From assembly GCA_007376445.1 (NCBI GenBank), contig VMGF01000002.1, positions 167,928-231,927 on the forward strand: 64,000 nucleotides of DNA, written 5' to 3'. Origin of the DNA: Parcubacteria group bacterium Gr01-1014_3. Its GTDB lineage: Bacteria; Patescibacteriota; Minisyncoccia; UBA6257; WO2-44-18. Numbering within the stretch: the first letter of the stretch is position 1; each line of letters opens with the position of its first letter. This document shows positions 9,782-62,931 of the stretch, piece by piece. A program made the translations under genes and the position numbers. The notes beneath the pieces were generated by a model, which made no database searches, was not told the origin of the DNA, and saw only the letters and a program-made list of their open reading frames with translations.

Positions 9782-9868
9782 CGTTTGAGATTAACACGCG
9801 AGGAATTCATTGGGCAAATTCCGCTTAATACGATTAGGCCTATTTGGGTCTAAATGCCGTAGATTGAT

Positions 9869-9936
9869 CCCGTTAGAAACCGCGCCCGCGCTTAGCGCGC
9901 CCCGGAGGGGCCTATGGGCGGGCTGTTTCTAACGGG
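9869..9936. repeat. CCCGTTAGA inverted-repeat element, copy 2 (68 bp, GC-rich nested-hairpin core)
   Basis: CCCGTTAGAAAC ... GTTTCTAACGGG with internal GCCCGC/GCGGGC and GCCCCggaGGGGC stems. Confidence 0.75.
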
Positions 9937-9937
9937 A

Positions 9938-9966
9938 TTGACATATATAATAGAATATGGTATAAT
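9938..9966 (+). promoter_or_regulatory. consensus sigma70 promoter fused to the element (TTGACA-17-TATAAT)
   Basis: TTGACA at 9938-9943, exact 17-nt spacer, TATAAT at 9961-9966. ATG of the next gene at 9976. Confidence 0.6.
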
Positions 9967-9975
9967 ATAGGAGTT

Positions 9976-10485
9976 ATGATTTACTATGACAACATCCCCC
10001 ATTATTCGCAGTTCCTGGATATCCCGCGCGTTGAGTGGCGGGCCGAAGGCTGTGGAATCGCGGCTTTAGCCATGGAAATTGAGTTCTATAAGCCAAAAAG
10101 CGTGTCTATTCCTTCCCTGCTCTCCCAGGCTATTAAGTCTGGCGCGCATGAGCTTGGTGTCGGCTGGAAGCATAAGCAGTTAGCCGATCTCGCTGAATTG
10201 TATGGCTTAGACGGAATTAACTATGACCTTACCGGCATGAGCAAGCAAGAAGCTTTTGGTGAGTTTAAGGATCGCTTAGCGGAAGGACCGGTGATCGTAT
10301 CCGTCCACAATAAGTTCGATCCTAGGGCTGCTCTTGGCCACATGGTAGTGGTAACCGGTATGGATAACGGTTACGTCTTTTATCACGATCCGGCCTATGA
10401 TAATAAGATCGCGAAAATGATCTCTGAGAAAGGATTTATGAAGGGTTGGAAACAGCGCTTCATCACGGTGCGAGAAAAATCCTAG
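9976..10485 (+). CDS. C39-like/papain-like cysteine peptidase domain protein
   Basis: AEGCGIAALAM (catalytic Cys context) and GHMVVVTG (His) resemble Peptidase_C39_2. Confidence 0.45.
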   Translation: MIYYDNIPHYSQFLDIPRVEWRAEGCGIAALAMEIEFYKPKSVSIPSLLSQAIKSGAHELGVGWKHKQLADLAELYGLDGINYDLTGMSKQEAFGEFKDRLAEGPVIVSVHNKFDPRAALGHMVVVTGMDNGYVFYHDPAYDNKIAKMISEKGFMKGWKQRFITVREKS

Positions 10486-11177: not shown

Positions 11178-11281
11178 CTTGATTCCTTTCTTAGAACACC
11201 TCCAATTTAGCAAAGGATTTTAAGTCGCGCAAGTTTGAAATTTTTAAACTTTGAGTTATAATACAAAGCAGTTCTTAATAT

Positions 11282-11572
11282 TCCCCGGTAGCTCAGCGGT
11301 AGAGCAGCTCGCTGTGAAATAGCGCAGCCTCCTAGAGTAATCTAGGTTGAATAACGAGGTGAACTCGGTGAAACCCCTTTGGGGCAATACCGAGCCAAGC
11401 CCAGATGAAAATCTGGGAAGGTGTAGAGACTATCCCGAAAGGGAGTACTCCAGCGAAAGCTGGCGGAAGCGCCTCGATCCGACAAAGGTCGGATATGATA
11501 TAGTCCACCCCTATTAGTAATAGTAGGACAAGTGTAACGAGAAGGTCCCAGGTTCGATCCCTGGCCGGGGAG
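11282..11572 (+). tRNA. tRNA interrupted by a roughly 219-nt group I intron in the anticodon loop; mature anticodon most likely GUU (Asn), alternatively UGU (Thr)
   Basis: 5' half TCCCCGG-TA-GCTC-AGCGGTA-GAGC-A-GCTCG-CUGU; 3' half UAA-CGAGA-AGGTC-CCAGG-TTCGATC-CCTGG-CCGGGGA-G. P1 pairs exon GCUGU with intron GCAGC through a U.G wobble. Confidence 0.7.
11316..11534 (+). ncRNA. group I intron (self-splicing type) within the tRNA
   Basis: Conserved core elements GACUAUC (R, about 11428) and GAUAUAGUCC (S, about 11498); terminal G; 5' exon ends in U. Confidence 0.65.
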
Positions 11573-11932: not shown

Positions 11933-12021
11933 ATTACAATATAAAATTTTCTATGTCAAATCGCTTGCGCTTGTAAAAACGCTTTGTTAAATTTTAGTCA
12001 GTACATTCAAGGAGTGGCCAG

Positions 12022-12465
12022 TTGAAACTGCCGAACCAATATTGGACCAAGAAAGATATTCAGGATGTTAAGAAGGCGAAAAGTTTTGGCGATCTTTCGG
12101 TGGTAGCAATGCGGGTGGTCGCGCGGATGCCCCAGCCGGTTGGCGAGGTTTGCGGACCGATCACCTCCGGCGGACTCGGCTCACGAGAAAAGAATCTAAA
12201 AGCCTTTAATCAGGCAATCGATAAGCTACGTAAAGCCGGCAACTGCATTTTTGATCAGATTCCGTTTGAGGAAAAGCTTTACGAGTTCACGCAGGCTAAG
12301 TGGTATAAAGGCGGACTTCAGCTCTTGAGTGAGTTTTATCTTCCGATCTTCAAGTCAGGACTGATCGATACTTTCTACTTTATGTCGCTCTGGCACACCT
12401 CAATGGGAGCCAAGTGGGAGCATGATCAGGCCAAGGCGCTTGGGATCAGGATAGTTTATTTATAA
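12022..12465 (+). CDS. hypothetical protein (TTG start, AAGGAG RBS)
   Basis: RBS AAGGAG 8 nt upstream of TTG. CGPITSGG motif; possibly a nucleoside-transferase-like fold. Confidence 0.4.
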   Translation: MKLPNQYWTKKDIQDVKKAKSFGDLSVVAMRVVARMPQPVGEVCGPITSGGLGSREKNLKAFNQAIDKLRKAGNCIFDQIPFEEKLYEFTQAKWYKGGLQLLSEFYLPIFKSGLIDTFYFMSLWHTSMGAKWEHDQAKALGIRIVYL

Positions 12466-12470
12466 AAAAG

Positions 12471-12505
12471 TCCCCTTCCGCCAGTTGGCGGAGGGGATTT
12501 TTATT
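12471..12505. terminator. bidirectional rho-independent terminator (TCCCCT-TCCGCCagttGGCGGA-GGGGA + T-run)
   Basis: Hairpin flanked by A-run and T-run between convergent genes. Confidence 0.7.
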
Positions 12506-12808
12506 TTAGTCGCGCATATTTACTTCATAAGTCTCTCGGTATGATATCACATAGCGTACCGGGATCAATACGACCATACGGCCCGCAGCGCCTTTGGGTA
12601 TGTAGGTTACCCTCAGACAATCTTCGTTCGTAGCCAAAGCTTTGATCGGCTGTTCATCGATCTCGGCGCTCGGGGCTAATTGATAGGCTGGATTCAAAGA
12701 TTCGACAACCAAATCTTCTGGAAGAATGTGCCCGTCCAGCAACCAATCGGAGCCACTCCGCTCAAGATACCAATTGAAAAGGATTACGACCCTGCGAAAA
12801 GACCACAT
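12506..12808 (-). CDS. hypothetical small protein
   Basis: ORF preceded by the family-3 leader that supplies GGGAGG 6 nt upstream of the ATG. Confidence 0.45.
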   Translation of the reverse strand: MWSFRRVVILFNWYLERSGSDWLLDGHILPEDLVVESLNPAYQLAPSAEIDEQPIKALATNEDCLRVTYIPKGAAGRMVVLIPVRYVISYRETYEVNMRD

Positions 12809-12814
12809 ATTTAG

Positions 12815-12882
12815 CCTCCCTAAATCAAATCCCTGATTTGATCGGGCGACCTAACTCACCACATAGTGAGTTAGGTTTAGCC
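12815..12882 (-). promoter_or_regulatory. conserved structured 5' leader (family 3, copy A)
   Basis: mRNA sense: GGCUAAACC-[ACCUAACUCAC..GUGAGUUAGGU hairpin]-CGCCCG-[AUCAAAU cagggAUUUGAU hairpin]-UUAGGGAGG-N6-AUG. Confidence 0.6.
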
Positions 12883-12949
12883 TCAAATCACTGGCCCAAC
12901 TATACCACTATATATAGAAGACGTCCAGGCTTGGTTCTAAGCCGCCCTA

Positions 12950-14621: not shown

Positions 14622-14653
14622 AAAACCGCCCGGTCGAATGACCGGGCGGTTTT
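14622..14653 (+). terminator. rho-independent terminator (AAAACCGCCCGGTCgaatGACCGGGCGGTTTT)
   Basis: Perfect 10-bp stem plus T-run. Confidence 0.75.
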
Positions 14654-19954: not shown

Positions 19955-19989
19955 AAAAACCACCCGGTCGAATGACTGGGTGGTTTTTT
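19955..19989 (+). terminator. rho-independent terminator (paralog of the 14622 hairpin with compensatory stem changes)
   Basis: AAAAACCACCCGGTCgaatGACTGGGTGGTTTTTT. Confidence 0.75.
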
Positions 19990-20725: not shown

Positions 20726-21127
20726 TTACTTTTTATCTTCGCAATTAACCGGTTCTGAACTTAGGAACTGGGCCGGTAAAATACTTTCGGCAGCCTTTGT
20801 TAAAACCGAGGAAAGCAGGCTGGGCTTGTCATCATTCTTCGCGCGAAGATCGGTAATCAGTTTTTCCGCTTCTTCGGCAAAGCTTTTCGGAATCGTACTC
20901 GTGGTCTTTACTTCAACTAACTTGGTCTCTAATTTAGAGATCACTTTTTCCCGCTTCTCTGCTGGAGTTGATAAAAAATCTTCCGCTGCCTCTTTGACCT
21001 TAGCGGGGGCGGCTTTAAGCTCAGAAATCGCCGTTTTAGCCTTATTTGCCACGTCTTCGGGTAAGCCATAGAGAAAGACCCACCCGGCTAACGCCGTGGA
21101 GATAATGATGAAAAATAAGGTCTTCAT
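20726..21127 (-). CDS. hypothetical secreted/membrane-anchored protein
   Basis: N-terminal TM helix MKTLFFIIISTALAGWVFL. Confidence 0.4.
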   Translation of the reverse strand: MKTLFFIIISTALAGWVFLYGLPEDVANKAKTAISELKAAPAKVKEAAEDFLSTPAEKREKVISKLETKLVEVKTTSTIPKSFAEEAEKLITDLRAKNDDKPSLLSSVLTKAAESILPAQFLSSEPVNCEDKK

Positions 21128-24360: not shown

Positions 24361-26139
24361 CTAGCTCTCCTTTTTCTTCAAAGATTCTGCAATAGCTTTT
24401 TTAAGCGCTTCGATATCTACTGGTTTTTTTATCGAGCTCATTGGTTTTATATTTTTAGCCTCTTCATCAATCAGATCCGGCGGACGCGAAACTAGTTCTT
24501 TTAAGGACGCCTGCTTGGCCGGCGCTTGTGGGATATTTTCGAATTTTGGCTTGCCCGCCTCTGGCGCTGGCTTGAGTGGAATACGAGGACTTTCCTGGCG
24601 ATCAACCCTGGTCGCCTTTGGCGCCGCCATAGGCGGGTAAATTGGCGTTATGGGTATCTCGCGACGGATATCAACCCTACGAATTTCGGGCTTGCCCGCC
24701 ATGGCGGGCTTATTGCCATAGCTAGTTTGATTTTGATGACCAGGCGCTTCTCTACGAAAACCGTCCATATTGCCCATGCTGATCGGACGATCGGGGCGAT
24801 ATTCTGGACGTGGCCGCCGGATGTCACTACCCATTTGATCTCCTCCTGCGCCACCCTGTTGAAGAAACTCTCCGGCGATCTTTGCTGAAACCACGGCAAT
24901 TGGAGTGGCGTAGGTCTTACGGGTATACTCAATGATCTCCTGAGCATAGGAAGTTGGGGGTTTAGAAATCGGATCCATGGTTTTAGCGGAAAAAGGCCGC
25001 GAAGCCACGCCGTCGATCATCAACTTCACGTAAACGTTATATTTCGCCAGATTCAAAATATCGGTAGCCATAAAATCCGGTTCATATTCTTTTTCTAAAA
25101 ATTCCGCGTCCTCCGCGCCAACCCGGAAGGTTATTAGAGTGCCGACGTTACCGAAAACCGCGTCCCTCATCCTAGTATTCATATCGTGAACCAGCTGACG
25201 GATATATTGATGCGCCAGAATAAGCGAAAGGCGGTATTTTCTGGCCTCAGATAAAATATTCGCGAAAGAATCGGTGGCAAAATTCTGAAACTCGTCTACA
25301 TATAAGAAAAAGTCTTTGCGATCTTTTTCCGCTAAATCAACGCGAGACATAGCCGCTAATTGTAGTTTAGTGATGATCATGGCGCCAAGAAGGGCGGAGT
25401 TATCCTCGCCGATACGGCCCTTGGATAGGTTGAAAATCAGGATTTTCTGCTCATCCATAGCCCTCCGTAAATTCATGGCCGATTTTGGCTGACCAAGAAT
25501 GTTGCGGACGGTTGGATTAGCGACCAGCTGACCGATCTTATTTTGAATAGCGGCAGTCGCTTCGGTCTCGAATTTTTGCGCGTAACGCGCGTACTCATTA
25601 ACCCAAAAACCTTTAATGACCGGGTCTTTCAGCTGGTCAACGATCCTGGCGCGGTATTCCTTGTCGGAGAAGATCCTTAACACACCAAGAATAGTAGAAT
25701 CGCTGAACTCAAGAAGCGCCAAGAGGGCGTTATTCAAAATGTATTCCATGCGAGCGGACCAGACATCCGGCCAGATCTTTTTGAAGACGCCCATGATACT
25801 GGACGCGATCAGCGGGCGCATCTCGTTGGTAACCTGCTCTAATGGATTAAAGGCGATCGGAAAATCGCTGTCGGATGGATTGAAATAGATAACGTCCTTG
25901 ATGCGCTCTTTTGGAACATAATCCAACATCTTTTCCGCGAAATCTCCGTGCGGATCCACCACGCCAACGCCGTGACCGTTCATGATGTCAGAAATAACCA
26001 TGTTCTCCAGCATGGTGGTTTTACCCATTCCGGTCTTACCGATGATGTACATGTGGCGGCGGCGGTCATCTACTTTAATGCCGAATTTTTTATTCGCCCC
26101 GCGGAAATTGGTTTGTCCAAATAATGTAATTTTATCCAT
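24361..26139 (-). CDS. TraG/VirD4-like (T4CP-like) P-loop ATPase with long disordered Pro/Arg-rich C-terminal tail
   Basis: Walker A IIGKTGMGKTT; Walker B FFLYVDEFQNF; ILAHQ motif. No TM segment. About 160-aa low-complexity tail. Confidence 0.5.
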   Translation of the reverse strand: MDKITLFGQTNFRGANKKFGIKVDDRRRHMYIIGKTGMGKTTMLENMVISDIMNGHGVGVVDPHGDFAEKMLDYVPKERIKDVIYFNPSDSDFPIAFNPLEQVTNEMRPLIASSIMGVFKKIWPDVWSARMEYILNNALLALLEFSDSTILGVLRIFSDKEYRARIVDQLKDPVIKGFWVNEYARYAQKFETEATAAIQNKIGQLVANPTVRNILGQPKSAMNLRRAMDEQKILIFNLSKGRIGEDNSALLGAMIITKLQLAAMSRVDLAEKDRKDFFLYVDEFQNFATDSFANILSEARKYRLSLILAHQYIRQLVHDMNTRMRDAVFGNVGTLITFRVGAEDAEFLEKEYEPDFMATDILNLAKYNVYVKLMIDGVASRPFSAKTMDPISKPPTSYAQEIIEYTRKTYATPIAVVSAKIAGEFLQQGGAGGDQMGSDIRRPRPEYRPDRPISMGNMDGFRREAPGHQNQTSYGNKPAMAGKPEIRRVDIRREIPITPIYPPMAAPKATRVDRQESPRIPLKPAPEAGKPKFENIPQAPAKQASLKELVSRPPDLIDEEAKNIKPMSSIKKPVDIEALKKAIAESLKKKES

Positions 26140-27507: not shown

Positions 27508-28536
27508 TTAAACTAGGGTCGTATAACGGCCGTCCTCTAACCTCTTAAAGTGCTTCTTATTCTGGAGGTTGATGAGAATGGTGTTTTCCTTGAACAAACG
27601 ATCCTTCAAGACATGTCCCATGACTTCTTTCGGCTTAAGCGGACCGTGCTGTTTGATGAAGTGAGCGATGATCTCGCGGGCGGTGCCCGGAACGATACCG
27701 AACTCTTTCAAGCTATAAGTGCCTTTGCCAACCAAAACGAATTTGTCGTCCTTGATCAGTTCGTTGTGGATAGTTGGAGCGTGAACCGGAGTAGCCTTCA
27801 ACTCGCTGACTTTCTTAGCTAATTCATTGAAGTGCATCGGGCGCTGTTCTTTCTTCAAAACCAAGTAGGCCCAATCGCGGGCAGTCTTCGGATTGATCTC
27901 AGCGGCGGCGGACGGACCGACTTCGCCATAACGGTTAACCGCTACATGCTTAGAGATCGCCGCGTAACCCATCGCTACCGAGTCAGTTAAATTAGCCGCC
28001 TTGGCGGTAGAAGCAAAAACGGCGTTATATTCGCCTTTCTTAGAATTCCAGCCATTCAAAACCTTAGATACGAAACCTAAAGCTTTCTTCTGATCATCGG
28101 AACCAATGTGCCAATGAGCTCGGTGGTCATCGGTTTCTTTAGCGAACTTGAATGAACCGCAAACTTCCAGCAGGAATTTTACTTTATTAGAAAGAAGGGC
28201 AACCGGTTCTTTATCCGTGGCCAGAGAAACTAAATCGCCGGAAAGGAAATCCTCTCGGCGGCAATTACCCGCATTTTTTAAATTAGCCGAAACTGCGGAG
28301 ACAAAAGACGCCAAATCAACTGAAGCGGCTTTTGCCTTAACGGTTTTCAAAGCCAATGCCTCGATCTGACGGATACGCTCACGAGTCAAATTATATTTAG
28401 TGCCTAGTTCAGCGAGGGTTTTGGAGTCCGCGCTAGTTAGACCATAACGACCTTCTAAAACCTCTTTGTGGCGGACCGGAAGACCGACGAGAATCGCCTT
28501 TACGAATTGATTGATTTTATAATTCGGGCTGGACAT
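27508..28536 (-). CDS. DNA-binding protein with N-terminal sigma-70 region-4-like HTH and C-terminal HARE-HTH
   Basis: TLAELGTKYNLTRERIRQIEALAL (region 4.2-like); C-terminal MHFNELAKKV...FVLVGKGTYSLKEFG (HARE-HTH-like). Confidence 0.45.
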   Translation of the reverse strand: MSSPNYKINQFVKAILVGLPVRHKEVLEGRYGLTSADSKTLAELGTKYNLTRERIRQIEALALKTVKAKAASVDLASFVSAVSANLKNAGNCRREDFLSGDLVSLATDKEPVALLSNKVKFLLEVCGSFKFAKETDDHRAHWHIGSDDQKKALGFVSKVLNGWNSKKGEYNAVFASTAKAANLTDSVAMGYAAISKHVAVNRYGEVGPSAAAEINPKTARDWAYLVLKKEQRPMHFNELAKKVSELKATPVHAPTIHNELIKDDKFVLVGKGTYSLKEFGIVPGTAREIIAHFIKQHGPLKPKEVMGHVLKDRLFKENTILINLQNKKHFKRLEDGRYTTLV

Positions 28537-30771: not shown

Positions 30772-31000
30772 AAGTTAAAAAGTGATTTTAAGTATAAACA
30801 ATTAAATAAAACTTTCAACCCCACGCCCCCCCCACAGGAACAAGGCTTTCGCTCCGCTCAAGCTCGAACACTTCCGCCGCACCCCGACCCCCGCTTAAGA
30901 CACCTTCGGTTTCTTACCCTCGTCCGCCATCCGCCAACTGGCGGAGGCGGACTCGGATCTTCCTGGTACGGGGTGCGGCTGGTTCGATTCCATGTAGCAA

Positions 31001-40234: not shown

Positions 40235-40813
40235 ATGCTTCCTGAACCCATAAAAAATCTAGTAGACCAGTTGGCGCAACTGCCGTCGATTGGGCCGCGC
40301 CAAGCTATCCGCCTAGCCTTTCATATTAAAAATCGTGGTGATAGCGCCGTGGAGCAGTTAGCTTCCTCGATAGCCGGACTGGCCAAGCTGAAGACTTGTC
40401 CGAGTTGCTTCTTGGTGCATGAAAGCGGAAATTCGGCGGGCCTCTGCCATATCTGCGATAATCCTCAGCGCGATCCGAAACTGGTAGCCGTGGTAGAAAA
40501 AGAGACCGATCTCATCTCGCTTGAACGAACCCAGAGGTATGGCGGGCGGTACTTGATCCTTGGCGAATTAAAAAAGGATGGCTCATTAAGCATTGAACAG
40601 AAAGCCAGGCTAGCCTCGATTAAAGATGCCGAAGAGATAATTTTAGGCATCAGCCCGACGACCTTCGGCGACCTGAATGTGGCCTTCATCAATCAGGAGT
40701 TAAAAAACTCCGCTAAAAAAATCACCCGCCTCGGCCGCGGCTTGCCGACCGGCGGCGAGATCGAATTCGCGGACGACGAAACTCTGGGAAGCGCTCTTGA
40801 AAATCGAAATTAG
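40235..40813 (+). CDS. recR: recombination protein RecR
   Basis: HhH motif; C4 zinc finger CPSC...CHIC; Toprim domain. Confidence 0.9.
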   Translation: MLPEPIKNLVDQLAQLPSIGPRQAIRLAFHIKNRGDSAVEQLASSIAGLAKLKTCPSCFLVHESGNSAGLCHICDNPQRDPKLVAVVEKETDLISLERTQRYGGRYLILGELKKDGSLSIEQKARLASIKDAEEIILGISPTTFGDLNVAFINQELKNSAKKITRLGRGLPTGGEIEFADDETLGSALENRN

Positions 40814-40839
40814 TTCTGGTATTATATCTTCAGTATTTT

Positions 40840-40907
40840 GGCTAAACCAAATTCGTTATGTGGCGAATTTGGTCGCCCGATCAAATCAGGGATTTGATTT
40901 AGGGAGG
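40840..40907 (+). promoter_or_regulatory. conserved structured 5' leader (family 3, copy C)
   Basis: GGCUAAACC-[AAAUUCG..CGAAUUU hairpin]-GGUCGCCCG-[AUCAAAUcagggAUUUGAU]-UUAGGGAGG-N5-AUG. Confidence 0.6.
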
Positions 40908-40912
40908 TGGCG

Positions 40913-41182
40913 ATGAACGCGAAGCGTCTGATCATGGGAGCGATTGCTGTTATCGGCCTCGCATTATCTTCAATAGGAATTTATGGCTACATTACGCACG
41001 ACAAGGTATTGGCCGATAATGTTGGTGTCTTAACTGGACTCGTGATTATGATGCTGGTGGCCATGTACTGGCCCAAGGTGGAAAAGCAGGCCTGTGGTGA
41101 CTGCGGATTCGAACACTGTAAATGTAATCCGCCGGCCAAAGAGGGAAAACCGGCCGAAGAGAAGAAGGACGAAAAGTGCTGA
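40913..41182 (+). CDS. small two-TM membrane protein with C-terminal Cys-rich motif (CGDCGFEHCKC)
   Basis: ATG 5 nt after GGGAGG. Two hydrophobic helices. Confidence 0.45.
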   Translation: MNAKRLIMGAIAVIGLALSSIGIYGYITHDKVLADNVGVLTGLVIMMLVAMYWPKVEKQACGDCGFEHCKCNPPAKEGKPAEEKKDEKC

Positions 41183-46028: not shown

Positions 46029-46247
46029 CTAAAGAATTTCAACAATCTTCTTTTTTGAGGTGTGGCCGGCGACAATTCGCACAGCGCCAGCTGGAACCTT
46101 AAAATATTTCGCGATGGCCGAAATAACCGCGCCGTTCGCCTTCCCCTGCACCGGCGGTTCTTTTACCGATACACGATAATTTATCTCGTCGAGCTTTTCT
46201 ACTGATTGCTCATGAGCATTGGCCTTCACCTGAATAAAAATCTTCAT
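46029..46247 (-). CDS. YggU/DUF167 family protein
   Basis: KIFIQVKANA...GKANGAVISAIAKYF...VAGHTSKKKIVEI matches DUF167. Confidence 0.7.
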   Translation of the reverse strand: MKIFIQVKANAHEQSVEKLDEINYRVSVKEPPVQGKANGAVISAIAKYFKVPAGAVRIVAGHTSKKKIVEIL

Positions 46248-55770: not shown

Positions 55771-56082
55771 TTATTTATCCTTAACTTCCCAACGACCTGA
55801 GTCAAATTCGGCAAGCTCGTTTCGCAAGCGCAGAATCTCGGCGTCTAACTCCGCTAACTGTTCCGCGACATCCTGATGCGCGAGCTCTTCAAGTTCTTTC
55901 TGTTTCTTCTTCAGTTCATCGAGCTTCTTTCGAAGCTTAGCGCCATATTTCGGATCCCTCTCATCAAACTGACCGGTATCCTTGTTTCCTATTAATCTAA
56001 GAATTGGTCGAACAACGGCGAGCCACAGAATCGAGAAAATCGCGACAATCATGATCGCTTCCAGCAATACCTGAATAAGCAT
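55771..56082 (-). CDS. small membrane protein with coiled-coil tail
   Basis: ATG 7 nt after GGGAGG supplied by the family-3 leader. Confidence 0.45.
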   Translation of the reverse strand: MLIQVLLEAIMIVAIFSILWLAVVRPILRLIGNKDTGQFDERDPKYGAKLRKKLDELKKKQKELEELAHQDVAEQLAELDAEILRLRNELAEFDSGRWEVKDK

Positions 56083-56089
56083 CTAGCCA

Positions 56090-56155
56090 CCTCCCTAAAT
56101 CAAATCCCTGATTTGATCGGGCGACCAACTTGCCACAAGGCAAGTTGGTTTAGCC
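56090..56155 (-). promoter_or_regulatory. conserved structured 5' leader (family 3, copy B)
   Basis: GGCUAAACC-[AACUUGCC uugu GGCAAGUU]-GGUCGCCCG-[AUCAAAUcagggAUUUGAU]-UUAGGGAGG-N7-AUG. Confidence 0.6.
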
Positions 56156-56233
56156 TTCTCTAGTTATAAAAGTGCCGAACTACCTTAACAGAAACCTTTG
56201 CGATAGTCAATTAGACCCACGCCGTTGGCGGGG

Positions 56234-56293: not shown

Positions 56294-56716
56294 CTACATC
56301 GAGATCCTGGAATTCGGCGGGAAGGCCTTGGCCTGAGCCGCTTCGGCTCGGCGTTCGGCGGCCGCCCTCAGGATACCGTGCCTCACGGAACCTTCGGAGA
56401 CGATGACCGGAAACGGGCCGGACCAGTCGATCTGGTGGTTGGCGTGCAGTTCATTGAGCTGCTGCGCCACCTCCACCGCCACCACCCGGCCGTGCCAACC
56501 ACCGACAGTGTCGATCGGTCCGATGAGCGGTACGGCGAGCACCGAGATCTGCCCGTTGCGGAACGTACCGATAACACGATACTCCCGCTCGCTCGGAATC
56601 CGTCCGCGCTTCCGGCCAGACCACTCCACAAAAAACGGAGGATCCAGCACATCCCGCCTGGCGGGAAGCTGAGACATCGGAACGATCGGAATGCCGTTCA
56701 TCAACTCGAAAGCCAT
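56294..56716 (-). CDS. hypothetical protein, GC-rich (about 62% GC against about 48% background)
   Basis: ORF with strongly atypical composition; no motif recognised. Confidence 0.45.
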   Translation of the reverse strand: MAFELMNGIPIVPMSQLPARRDVLDPPFFVEWSGRKRGRIPSEREYRVIGTFRNGQISVLAVPLIGPIDTVGGWHGRVVAVEVAQQLNELHANHQIDWSGPFPVIVSEGSVRHGILRAAAERRAEAAQAKAFPPNSRISM

Positions 56717-56819
56717 CAGATACCTCCCTAAGTTGTTAATCTACACTTCGTATATTATAGCATACCTTATAATTAAAGTCAAATAATAAAGCCCAGTCAT
56801 TCGACTGGGCTAGTTTTCG

Positions 56820-57725: not shown

Positions 57726-57845
57726 ACAACCTCCTTGCCTCCGCCAGTTGGCGGATGGCGGGCGAATACTGTAAAGAAACTTTGAATATATTAATAAAAT
57801 ACACCGATAAAGTCAACCGCTCGATTAATTTCTCATGATATTGAT

Positions 57846-57913
57846 CCCGTTAGAAGTCGCGCCCGCGCTTTGCGCGCCCCAAAGGGGCCTATGGGCGGGC
57901 TACTTCTAACGGG
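57846..57913. repeat. CCCGTTAGA inverted-repeat element, copy 4 (68 bp, about 90% identical to copy 2 with compensatory stem changes)
   Basis: CCCGTTAGAAGT ... ACTTCTAACGGG; inner GCCCCaaaGGGGC hairpin. Confidence 0.75.
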
Positions 57914-57914
57914 A

Positions 57915-57943
57915 TTGACAATAGGCTTAATGTATGCTATAAT
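57915..57943 (+). promoter_or_regulatory. consensus sigma70 promoter fused to the element (TTGACA-17-TATAAT)
   Basis: Same offset from the element as at 9938. AAGGAGA RBS and ATG at 57993. Confidence 0.6.
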
Positions 57944-57992: not shown

Positions 57993-58424
57993 ATGGTCGA
58001 CACATCAGCTTACGGATCCCAGATTCTGGACCTGGTCGCGGCTCGAGAAACCGCCGTCAAAAAGTACACGGCGCGGGACGCGGCCTGGAAGGAGCGGCAG
58101 ATGACCAAGGAGCAGCGTCAGGCCGAAGAGGAGAACGAGATCCAGCGGGCCAAGGTGGAGATCCTAAGGATCGAGGCGCGAATCATGGAGGTCAAGGAGC
58201 TCGGGGGAACGAGGCTGGAGAATATCCGCTTTGTGCCCCTGTCCATCTGCGCGATGCCCGTCAGCGTCCAAAGCTGGTACGAGATCCGCACGTCCTGGAT
58301 CAGAAATCCGGAGCGCATGATCTTGGCGGCTTTCGATCGTGGTAACCGCCGGATTGACTTCGCTGAGAAGATCGACCCGACGACTCAGACCAGAGGCTTC
58401 TCTGTTTCGATCTCCTGGGACTAA
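57993..58424 (+). CDS. hypothetical protein (GC-rich orphan)
   Basis: ORF with RBS AAGGAGA 5 nt upstream; about 58% GC. Confidence 0.45.
   Translation: MVDTSAYGSQILDLVAARETAVKKYTARDAAWKERQMTKEQRQAEEENEIQRAKVEILRIEARIMEVKELGGTRLENIRFVPLSICAMPVSVQSWYEIRTSWIRNPERMILAAFDRGNRRIDFAEKIDPTTQTRGFSVSISWD

Positions 58425-60879: not shown

Positions 60880-62931
<2,052 letters not shown>

What the first reader, a model, noticed from the sequence alone, without database searches (positions are those of the whole stretch)
12815..12882. Conserved two-hairpin 5' leader that supplies the Shine-Dalgarno for three unrelated small-protein genes (copy A)
The three copies are at 12815-12882 (gene 12506-12808, minus), 40840-40907 (gene 40913-41182, plus) and 56090-56155 (gene 55771-56082, minus). 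In mRNA sense each reads GGCUAAACC, then an 8-11 bp variable stem with a UGU-containing loop, then GGUCGCCCG, then AUCAAAU-cagggAUUUGAU, then UUAGGGAGG, then 5-7 nt and AUG. The 3' 37 nt are identical in all copies. The first hairpin has a completely different sequence in each copy yet remains perfectly paired (ACCUAACUCAC, ACCAACUUGCC and CCAAAUUCG stems). That is textbook covariation for a functional RNA. All three downstream genes encode proteins of about 90-105 aa, two of them small membrane proteins. Candidate roles include a riboregulator or thermosensor, an RNase processing site, or a mobile RBS module.
Basis: seen in the sequence. Interest (0 to 1): 0.7.

Follow-up and report, generated by a model that had tools for sequence, protein, structure and literature searches.

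The report
Tiny mobile hairpin element inserted at ribosome-binding sites
The three "conserved leaders" are copies of a roughly 60-base mobile DNA element of a small group of Parcubacteria that inserts precisely at the GG of a gene's existing ribosome-binding site (or at the first bases of a tRNA gene), so it is a transposon-like insertion carried in the mRNA leader and not a dedicated RNA regulator that supplies the ribosome-binding site.

Summary
There are three copies, with an identical 37-nt 3' part and identical GGCTAAACC, and hairpin 1 differs by compensated changes. Rfam has no match. The interpretation needs revising.

Orthologues of all three genes in related Parcubacteria keep the same promoter and a GGAGG Shine-Dalgarno (SD) but lack the element. 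One close relative (L210) gives a reciprocal case. It lacks the copy at gene A but carries one before the neighbouring DUF4406 gene, where the window has none. Each filled site equals the empty site plus 59-61 nt plus GG: ...GG|CTAAAYC...GATTTAG|GG AGG. The termini are imperfect inverted repeats (7-12 of 13).

A context-blind metagenome scan found 14 more distinct copies. All lie after a promoter and share the orientation of the downstream gene. They precede unrelated genes (S13, acyl-CoA dehydrogenase, an AAA ATPase, small ORFs). In two contigs the element abuts tRNA-Glu exactly at position -1.

Hairpin 1 covaries (9 of 11 pairs). The hairpin 2 loop is free. Predicted SD accessibility is unchanged.

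Best reading: a non-autonomous MITE/REPIN-like element with GG at both junctions and striking SD/tRNA-start targeting. The mobilising enzyme is unknown.

The parts
12820..12880 (-). Copy A, element proper (61 nt, CTAAACC...GATTTAG). Hairpin 1 is at 12876-12849 and hairpin 2 at 12842-12824.
   Evidence: The orthologous sites in L210 and L084 are empty.
12881..12882 (-). Copy A, left flanking GG (direct repeat of the target dinucleotide).
   Evidence: The empty site in L210 reads atttgaGGAGGct. The filled site reads atttgaGG[61 nt]GGAGGct.
12815..12819 (-). Copy A, pre-existing Shine-Dalgarno GGAGG. Its first GG is the right flanking GG. The start codon is at 12808-12806.
12506..12808 (-). Gene A, 100 aa. 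It has no Pfam family and no hydrophobic segment, and it evolves fast.
12899..12927 (-). Promoter-like site of gene A (TGGACG-17-TATAGT with TG). It is identical in the relatives that lack the element.
40842..40902 (+). Copy B, element proper (61 nt). Hairpin 1 is at 40846-40873 and hairpin 2 at 40880-40898.
   Evidence: The orthologous site in L085 is empty.
40840..40841 (+). Copy B, left flanking GG.
40903..40907 (+). Copy B, pre-existing Shine-Dalgarno GGAGG. The start codon is at 40913.
   Evidence: The NCBI protein of 89 aa matches at 100%.
40913..41182 (+). Gene B, 89 aa, with two hydrophobic segments. It lies downstream of recR.
40797..40825 (+). Promoter-like site of gene B (TTGAAA-17-TATTAT with TG).
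56095..56153 (-). Copy C, element proper (59 nt). Hairpin 1 is at 56149-56124 and hairpin 2 at 56117-56099.
   Evidence: The orthologous sites in L086 and L087 are empty.
56154..56155 (-). Copy C, left flanking GG.
56090..56094 (-). Copy C, pre-existing Shine-Dalgarno GGAGG. The start codon is at 56082-56080.
55771..56082 (-). Gene C, 103 aa, with an N-terminal hydrophobic segment followed by a charged helical tail.
56182..56210 (-). Probable promoter of gene C (TTGACT-N17-TAAGGT). It was read by eye and is conserved in L086 and L087. The consensus scanner did not call it.
12011..12012 (+). Unoccupied target GG in the window, within the SD AAGGAG of the DUF4406 gene (12022-12465). The close relative L210 carries a copy of the element exactly here.

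Best explanation
The three repeats are copies of a miniature, non-coding mobile element 48-62 nt long, of the MITE/REPIN-like kind, found in a narrow clade of Parcubacteria (Paceibacteria).

Anatomy: a terminal inverted repeat CTAAAYCAA.. / ..TTGATTTAG; a first hairpin whose stem sequence is free but must pair; the linker CGCCCG; and a second hairpin ATCAAAT-N5-ATTTGAT with a free loop.

Shown:
- It integrates at a GG and ends up with GG on both sides.
- The GG it uses is almost always the first GG of an existing (A)AGGAG(G) Shine-Dalgarno in a short 5' UTR, or G1G2 of a tRNA gene.
- It therefore always lies between promoter and gene, in the sense orientation, and leaves the SD or the mature tRNA intact.

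Inferred:
- It is moved in trans by a recombinase or transposase encoded elsewhere in the genome.
- The abutted ends RE-GG-LE form an inverted repeat about a 2-bp core. This is the geometry of a serine-recombinase crossover site (IS607 uses a GG overlap) or of a 2-bp-spacer circle junction of DDE elements such as IS30.
- Once inserted it is co-transcribed as two self-contained hairpins that neither provide nor mask the SD.
- Any effect on mRNA stability or processing is secondary and unproven.
For: Precise presence/absence:
- Gene A has the element in the window. It is absent in L210 (flanks nearly identical) and in L084.
- Gene B's orthologue in L085 lacks it. Gene C's orthologues in L086 and L087 lack it.
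- In the reverse direction, the DUF4406 gene has it in L210 (that protein is 94% identical to the window's) but not in the window or L084.
- In every case, filled site = empty site + element + GG.

Inverted termini:
- 7-12 of 13 terminal positions match between the left end and the reverse complement of the right end in 17 copies. CTAAA is shared by 16 of 17.

Multicopy and dispersed:
- 3 copies in 64 kb here and 2 in 10 kb of L208. There are 17 distinct copies at 15 distinct loci, and all share the orientation of the downstream gene.

Unrelated cargo genes:
- S13, acyl-CoA dehydrogenase, AAA ATPase, DUF4406, small ORFs and tRNA-Glu.

Conserved ends with a variable, compensated stem:
- 9 of 11 P1 pairs change on both sides and 98% of cells are paired. 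0 of 500 shuffles reach this. REPINs show this pattern (PMC3116915).
- P1 'types' are shared between different loci in different genomes (winB/L209, winC/L207, L210/L212). Variants therefore propagate by copying.

GG junctions:
- IS607 inserts only at GG and carries GG at its termini (PMC6188088; PMC4058570).

No sign of a dedicated RNA role:
- No Rfam family matches. Predicted SD accessibility is the same with and without the element.

Target statistics:
- Only 8 of 68 genes in the window have GGAGG upstream, and 3 of those 8 carry the element.
- 728 GG dinucleotides lie in intergenic DNA. The SD location is therefore highly non-random.
Against: - No transposase or recombinase gene lies in the window (Pfam on 68 ORFs). 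No full-length autonomous element with these ends was found, so the mobilising enzyme is unidentified.
- Exclusive sense orientation and an exclusive promoter-proximal position are unusual for a selfish MITE. They could instead reflect a host function.
- The element is retained at orthologous loci in two species pairs (acyl-CoA dehydrogenase in L199/L203; tRNA-Glu in L194/L205). The non-P1 sequence is conserved there, which fits purifying selection as well as hotspot re-insertion.
- A double-strand recombinase would not need hairpin 1 to pair. This fits a single-stranded (HUH-type) intermediate or an RNA-level constraint better.
- The metagenome pattern fixed the stem of hairpin 2, so that stem's apparent invariance is partly an ascertainment effect.
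- No transcript data are available.
Confidence: 0.7

Rival explanations
1. It is a host-beneficial, portable 5'-leader module, either a domesticated mobile element or a leader spread by recombination. In this reading the two hairpins act in the RNA. They could serve as a 5' stabiliser against exonucleolytic or 5'-end-dependent decay, or as a processing signal that defines a clean 5' end just upstream of the SD or the tRNA.
For: - All 15 loci are transcribed-strand, promoter-proximal and immediately 5' of the functional start: the SD, or tRNA position +1.
- The hairpins are stable (z = -2.5 to -5.2).
- P1 pairing is maintained, including between orthologous copies L199/L203.
- The element is retained at tRNA-Glu in two divergent genomes.
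- Occupancy of SD-led genes is high, 3 of 8.
Against: - Orthologues work without it in relatives, including a very close one.
- There is no strand signature of RNA selection. Five G-U cells compare with three non-standard cells, which by manual reading are all A-C/C-A, that is, wobble pairs on the other strand.
- Predicted SD accessibility is unchanged.
- No transcript or 5'-end data exist.
- This explanation is compatible with the best explanation rather than exclusive of it.
Confidence: 0.17
2. It is a cis-regulatory RNA switch: a riboswitch, an RNA thermometer, or a protein-binding leader (for example CsrA-like binding to CAGGGA in the hairpin 2 loop plus GGA in the SD). It would control translation of a regulon of small proteins.
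For: - The window's copies have CAGGGAU in the hairpin 2 loop and GGGAGG 11 nt downstream.
- CCC of the linker can pair either with the 5' GGC or with the GGG at the SD, giving mutually exclusive closing helices.
- There is covariation in P1.
Against: - The hairpin 2 loop is not conserved across the family: CAGAA, CCCCG, TTTCA, CCTTG, CAAAG, CGAAG and others.
- Downstream genes are functionally unrelated and include a tRNA, which has no SD.
- The element is absent from orthologues.
- No CsrA or Hfq was detected in the window.
- There is no Rfam match.
- Predicted SD accessibility is unchanged.
Confidence: 0.05
3. It results from ordinary segmental duplication or gene conversion of one 5' UTR among paralogous loci, with no dedicated mobility mechanism.
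For: The 37-nt 3' part is identical in the three copies.
Against: - The boundaries are exactly the same at 15 loci in several genomes, with GG on both sides and inverted termini.
- The flanks and downstream genes are unrelated.
- Reciprocal clean indels separate close relatives.
Confidence: 0.03

Closest known systems
Bacterial MITEs that lodge in transcribed leaders (e.g. Neisseria Correia elements, enterobacterial ERIC/IRU; from my own knowledge, not checked here)
   Same: It is short, non-coding and multicopy. It has terminal inverted repeats and a short direct repeat of the target. It shows presence/absence polymorphism between relatives. It is co-transcribed with neighbouring genes as a hairpin-forming RNA.
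   Different: - It is much smaller, at 48-62 nt against about 100-150 nt.
- The flanking repeat is GG, not TA.
- Every copy seen is in one orientation and at one functional position (the GG of the SD, or tRNA +1). Copies are not scattered through intergenic DNA.
- No cognate IS is known.
REPINs / REP sequences mobilised by RAYT (TnpA-REP) (PMC3116915)
   Same: It has conserved terminal sequence blocks separated by a stem whose sequence drifts but stays paired through compensatory changes. It persists as a diversified population of variants within genomes. It is thought to be moved in trans by a single-copy enzyme.
   Different: - REPINs are two inverted REPs forming one long hairpin. They lie mostly between convergent genes or at 3' ends.
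- Here there are two different hairpins side by side, a GG-flanked insertion, and a 5'-leader position.
- No RAYT could be looked for.
IS607-family serine-recombinase transposons (PMC6188088, PMC4058570)
   Same: They insert only at a GG, prefer (G)GG, carry GG at both element-host junctions and add no other host sequence. Excision and integration are scarless, via a circle whose joined ends form the crossover site.
   Different: - IS607 elements are described as lacking terminal inverted repeats, with short direct subterminal repeats instead. This element has inverted termini.
- IS607 shows almost no target preference beyond GG, whereas this element shows extreme positional specificity.
- No serine recombinase is in the window.
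IS200/IS605-derived palindrome-associated elements (single-strand HUH transposition; from my own knowledge)
   Same: It has subterminal hairpins at both ends that are recognised as structure. Insertion is strand-specific, next to a short target. There is no real target duplication. This would explain why hairpin 1 needs only to pair.
   Different: - Those elements lack inverted termini and use an invariant 4-5 nt target.
- Their orientation follows replication, not transcription. Here copies A and C versus B lie on opposite strands within one replichore by GC skew, yet all follow their gene.

Membership tests
MITE (miniature inverted-repeat transposable element) | Short (<~300 bp) with no coding capacity | tested here: met
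   The element is 48-62 nt. There is no room for an ORF.
MITE (miniature inverted-repeat transposable element) | Terminal inverted repeats | tested here: met
   The left end and the reverse complement of the right end match at 7-12 of 13 positions in 17 copies. CTAAA is shared by 16 of 17.
MITE (miniature inverted-repeat transposable element) | Short direct repeat of the target at both ends | tested here: met
   GG is on both sides in 17 of 17 copies. Empty sites carry a single GG. Duplication cannot be told apart from exchange across a GG overlap.
MITE (miniature inverted-repeat transposable element) | Multiple dispersed copies and filled/empty polymorphism between relatives | tested here: met
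   3 copies in the window, 14 further distinct copies in metagenomes. Four loci have empty orthologous sites, one of them reciprocal.
MITE (miniature inverted-repeat transposable element) | A cognate autonomous element or transposase with matching ends | not testable with these tools
   None is in the window or in the held loci.
IS607-family derivative | Insertion at GG, with GG at both junctions and no other duplication | tested here: met
   compared with PMC6188088.
IS607-family derivative | No terminal inverted repeats; short direct subterminal repeats instead | tested here: not met
   The termini are inverted repeats. The IS607 description is from the abstract of PMC6188088.
IS607-family derivative | Serine recombinase TnpA encoded in the genome | not testable with these tools
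   None is in the 64-kb window. The remainder of the genome is not available.
REP/REPIN | Two inverted REP units forming one long hairpin, extragenic and mostly at 3' ends, with an associated RAYT | tested here: not met
   There are two different adjacent hairpins and a 5'-leader position in all copies. The RAYT is not testable.
Cis-regulatory leader RNA (riboswitch, thermometer or protein-binding leader) | Conserved upstream of orthologous genes and/or of a functionally coherent gene set | tested here: not met
   Orthologues lack it. The downstream genes are unrelated and include tRNA-Glu.
Cis-regulatory leader RNA (riboswitch, thermometer or protein-binding leader) | Match to a curated RNA family | tested here: not met
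   An Rfam 15 gathering-threshold scan of the window found only 3 tRNAs and a group I intron. An E-value scan of copy B gave only chance matches with E above 3.
CsrA/Rsm-regulated leader | Conserved GGA motif in a hairpin loop plus a GGA at the SD | tested here: not met
   The hairpin 2 loop varies freely across the family, and several loops lack GGA. No CsrA was found in the window.

The most novel reading that the evidence does not exclude
The element may be a mobile 5'-leader cassette whose integration machinery recognises the start of a functional RNA unit just downstream of a promoter. That start is the GG of the Shine-Dalgarno, or G1G2 of a tRNA. Recognition could occur through single-stranded non-template DNA in promoter-proximal transcription complexes, which would explain the invariable sense orientation and the structure-only constraint on hairpin 1. 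The resulting structured leader may have been co-opted by the host, for example for 5'-end protection or processing, in an organism where most genes lack an SD. This would be a bacterial counterpart of transcription-start-targeted integration, and a new way of spreading a cis-acting RNA module.
Probability: 0.15. Interest if true: 0.75.

Novelty: new variant of a known kind. Interest (0 to 1): 0.5.

Why it matters
Candidate Phyla Radiation (CPR) bacteria have tiny, gene-dense genomes and are thought to carry little repetitive DNA. A very small mobile element that survives there by landing exactly between promoter and ribosome-binding site (or at tRNA +1) without breaking either shows one way selfish DNA can persist in streamlined genomes.

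It also provides a natural set of filled and empty alleles. These can be used to test how a structured 5' leader affects expression in organisms that cannot be cultured.

The case is a caution for RNA-motif discovery as well. Perfect covariation and a fixed position before start codons can come from a mobile palindromic element and need not indicate a riboregulator.

If the targeting proves to be enzymatic and not a product of selection, the enzyme would be a recombinase with an unusual and potentially useful site preference.

Tried and rejected
- CsrA-type leader. The loop CAGGGAU resembles the CsrA consensus. I rejected this because the loop is variable across the family and the window has no CsrA or Hfq.
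- SD sequestration or a thermometer. Partition-function folding of each mRNA, with the element and with the reconstructed empty site, gives similar SD and AUG accessibility.
- Known RNA family. Rfam gathering-threshold and E-value scans were both negative.
- Exact pattern GGTCGCCCG-N7-CAGGG-N7-TTAGGGAGG. It gave 0 hits in genome, viral and metagenome collections. It was too strict, because it required the window's loop and the flanking GAGG.
- First covariance model R1 (3 sequences) and second model R2 (17 sequences), run on 1.3 Mb around recR from 80 other Paceibacteria. No copies were found, so the family is clade-restricted.
- Loose 5'-half pattern in viral contigs. It gave 105 chance hits and none had the second hairpin. 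Three further viral patterns gave 0 hits.
- Plasmid and phage BLAST gave no match.
- 'TTAGGGAGG' before gene 56294-56716 as an excision footprint. I rejected this because the relative L087 has the same native leader context.
- 'Inserts at the first GG of the transcript'. By manual reading of the left flanks listed, this fails in at least three loci (L197, L201, L210), which have another GG a few bases upstream.
- Similarity between the right arm of hairpin 1 and the start-codon region of each gene. I judged it coincidental, because it rests on the invariant TGTGG plus the common GGTGG after SDs.
- The four metagenome hits without the 5' half (L196, L200, L202, L204) as possible right ends of an autonomous element. 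The one I examined (L196) lies inside a long ORF and is a chance match.
- Exact-sequence look-up of L21 to reach more contigs of relatives. It is not on record.

Full report
**Observation**

The 37-nt 3' block GGTCGCCCGATCAAATCAGGGATTTGATTTAGGGAGG occurs three times with no mismatch and never in 100 shuffles. Each copy is preceded by GGCTAAACC.

When aligned, hairpin 1 is less different than described. Six of its 11 pairs are invariant, four change on both sides, one changes C-G to U-G, and one pair is deleted on both sides. All 57 other columns are identical. Each copy folds into two local hairpins with z-scores of -2.5 to -5.2.

A sigma-70-like promoter lies 14-26 nt upstream of each copy, and an intrinsic terminator follows each short gene. 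An unfiltered covariance-model search finds no further copy in the window.

**Setting**

The window is ordinary chromosome of a Parcubacteria/Paceibacteria bacterium. NCBI names the identical proteins 'Parcubacteria group bacterium Gr01-1014_3'. It carries recR, dnaB, dnaK/dnaJ/grpE, secDF, ligA, obg and L21, and no transposase or recombinase. The best RecR relative among 185,579 species genomes is only 58% identical.

Only 8 of 68 crude gene calls have GGAGG within 25 nt upstream. Three of those eight are the genes carrying the element.

**Not a known RNA family**

Rfam at gathering thresholds finds only three tRNAs and a group I intron in the window. An E-value scan of copy B gives only chance matches. 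Plasmid and phage collections have no similar DNA.

**The decisive result: orthologous empty sites**

Homologues of the three small proteins exist only in a few metagenome contigs. In all of them the promoter and the Shine-Dalgarno (SD) are conserved, but the element is missing:
- Gene A in L084...tatagttgggccagt tataaGGAGGtggcgaATG.
- Gene B in L085...tggtatgatttagccagtaatttGGAGGtgtcggaATG.
- Gene C in L086...cacttttataatagaGGAGGtggtcaGTG. In L087...catttacaaGGAGtgttagATG.

A much closer relative turned up later. This is L210, whose DUF4406 protein is 94% identical and whose intergenic DNA is almost identical. It gives a reciprocal pair. Upstream of gene A, L210 reads cagttatttgaGGAGGctgtATG, where the window reads cagtgatttgaGG[61 nt]GGAGGctaaatATG. 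Upstream of the adjacent DUF4406 gene, L210 carries a copy (755-818), where the window reads gtacattcaaGGAGtggccagTTG. The more distant L084 is empty at both loci.

These are therefore two recent, independent gains in sister lineages. In every comparison the filled site equals the empty site plus the element plus GG. The SD is not supplied by the element. It was there first, and the element landed on its first GG.

**The wider family**

My first, strict pattern found nothing in any collection. A second pattern required only hairpin 2 and TTTAGG and placed no condition on the flanks. It returned 19 metagenome loci. Four are chance matches. Fifteen loci (two of them duplicate records) carry the complete element, which gives 14 distinct copies from 13 non-duplicate loci, since L208 carries two.

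Together with the window this makes 17 distinct copies at 15 distinct loci. All lie 14-30 nt after a -10 box and all share the orientation of the downstream gene. If orientation were random, the probability would be about 6e-5.
- Twelve of the 14 metagenome copies are followed by GGAG(G/T/A) and a start codon 5-12 nt later.
- One (L197, ribosomal protein S13) is followed by GGATAAAAATAAAACAATG.
- Two (L194, L205) abut a tRNA-Glu(UUC) gene. ARAGORN places tRNA position 1 so that the element ends at -1 and the flanking GG is G1G2 of the tRNA.

Downstream genes are unrelated. They include S13, a 652-aa acyl-CoA dehydrogenase, an AAA ATPase, DUF4406, a P-loop protein and several small ORFs without a family.

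A 17-sequence covariance model finds no copy in 1.3 Mb from 80 other Paceibacteria. The family is therefore clade-restricted.

**Anatomy**

Between the two GGs the element is 48-62 nt long. Its termini are imperfect inverted repeats: CTAAAYCAA(T)T on the left and the reverse complement of ATTTGATTTAG on the right. They match at 7-12 of 13 positions, and the first five match in 16 of 17 copies.

Hairpin 1 is free in sequence but paired. Nine of 11 pairs change on both sides, 98% of cells are paired, and no shuffle or slid register comes close. The linker CGCCCG and the stem of hairpin 2 are constant. The stem's constancy is partly forced by my search pattern. The loop of hairpin 2 is free, with eleven different pentamers.

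Both hairpins share one architecture, a 3-bp G/C clamp, TAA opposite a single C or G, then the stem, in mirror orientation. The two clamps compete for the same CC of the linker.

P1 variants recur at different loci in different genomes (winB/L209, winC/L207, L210/L212). The variants are therefore propagated lineages and not local drift.

Five G-U cells compare with three non-standard cells. By manual reading these three are all A-C type, which gives no evidence that selection acts on the sense RNA rather than on DNA.

**How it most likely works**

Shown:
- Clean gain and loss at GG.
- Inverted termini.
- Many dispersed copies.
- Unrelated neighbouring genes.
- Fixed position and orientation.

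Inferred:
- The element is non-autonomous and is moved in trans.
- When the ends are abutted they read ATTTGATTTAG-GG-CTAAATCAAT, an inverted repeat about a 2-bp core.
  - That is the geometry of a serine-recombinase crossover site. The IS607 family uses exactly a GG overlap, inserts only at GG (preferring GGG) and leaves no other duplication (PMC6188088; PMC4058570).
  - However, IS607 elements are described as lacking inverted termini and as nearly target-blind. Membership is therefore not supported.
  - A DDE element with a 2-bp duplication remains possible.
  - So does a single-strand HUH mechanism, which would explain the structure-only constraint on hairpin 1.
- Position and orientation can be explained by a target that includes the asymmetric A-rich-GG-AG motif.
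- They can also be explained by a bare GG preference filtered by selection. The genome is 89% coding, and the SD is almost the only GG in AT-rich leaders. The window has 728 intergenic GG but only 8 at SDs.
- I cannot separate these two explanations.
- Replication-linked strand bias does not explain the orientation. Copies A and C versus B lie on opposite strands within one GC-skew domain.

**Consequences for the RNA**

The element is co-transcribed as two self-contained hairpins ending 4 nt before the SD. Folding each mRNA with the element, and with the reconstructed empty site, gives similar predicted accessibility of SD and AUG. There is thus no support for SD sequestration.

The CsrA idea prompted by the CAGGGAU loop fails on the variable loop and the tRNA association. 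A role as a 5' stabiliser or processing signal is not excluded. The element is retained at orthologous acyl-CoA dehydrogenase loci (L199/L203, with a compensatory change) and at tRNA-Glu in two divergent genomes. No data here test that role.

**Comparison and novelty**

The closest known kinds are bacterial MITEs carried in leaders, REPINs, and IS607. REPINs share the conserved blocks with a compensated variable stem (PMC3116915). IS607 shares the GG junctions.

This element differs in four ways. It is extremely small. It combines inverted termini with GG junctions. It is confined to a CPR clade. Above all, it is found only at the GG of an SD or at tRNA +1, in sense orientation. I rate it a new variant of a known kind.

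Limits:
- No autonomous partner was found.
- The rest of the genome was not available.
- There are no transcript data.
- The search pattern introduced ascertainment bias in hairpin 2.

Noticed in passing
window 9863-9943 and 57840-57920: There is a second palindromic repeat family of 81 nt, with two copies 91% identical. The outer stem is TCCCGTTAGAAAC/GTTTCTAACGGGA, and the copies differ by two compensated changes. Its 3' end provides a TTGACA 17-18 nt upstream of a TATAAT, in front of + strand genes 9976-10485 and 57993-58424. It may be a promoter-carrying MITE or an operator.
   Followed up: partly
window 11227-11527 (+): A group I intron matches Rfam RF00028 at 57.8 bits against a gathering score of 50. 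The host gene and exons were not identified. Small ORFs without Pfam hits overlap it on the opposite strand.
   Followed up: no
whole window (e.g. starts at 9976, 20726-21127, 36216, 46029-46247, 60880-62913): Only 8 of 68 crude gene calls have GGAGG within 25 nt upstream. Many start codons follow a TATAAT-like box directly. The organism therefore seems to use mostly SD-less or leaderless initiation.
   Followed up: partly
L086 560-585 (relative), compared with window 56717-56760 and L087 1255-1285: A different GC-rich hairpin (gcccacgccgatggcggggc) sits just 5' of the SD of the 140-aa gene in L086. It is absent from the window and from L087. Other small hairpin insertions may also accumulate immediately upstream of SDs in this clade.
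   Followed up: no
window 12506-12808 compared with L210 1317-1634: Gene A appears only about half identical (estimated by eye, not computed) between the window and L210. The convergent DUF4406 neighbour is 94% identical and the intergenic DNA is nearly identical. Gene A is therefore a very fast-evolving small protein.
   Followed up: partly
window 24361-26139 (-) and 27508-28536 (-): A TrwB/TraG-like type IV coupling ATPase and a protein with sigma-70 region 4 plus a HARE-HTH domain lie in the chromosome between RNR and secDF. This may be a remnant of a conjugative or competence system.
   Followed up: no
window 14622-14653, 19956-19987, 12473-12496, 30930-30948, 57740-57758: Terminator hairpins recur as near-identical sequence families (AAAACCRCCCGGTCGAATGACYGGGYGGTTTT and TCCGCCAGTTGGCGGAGGG). 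This suggests that terminators are also copied or converted between loci.
   Followed up: no
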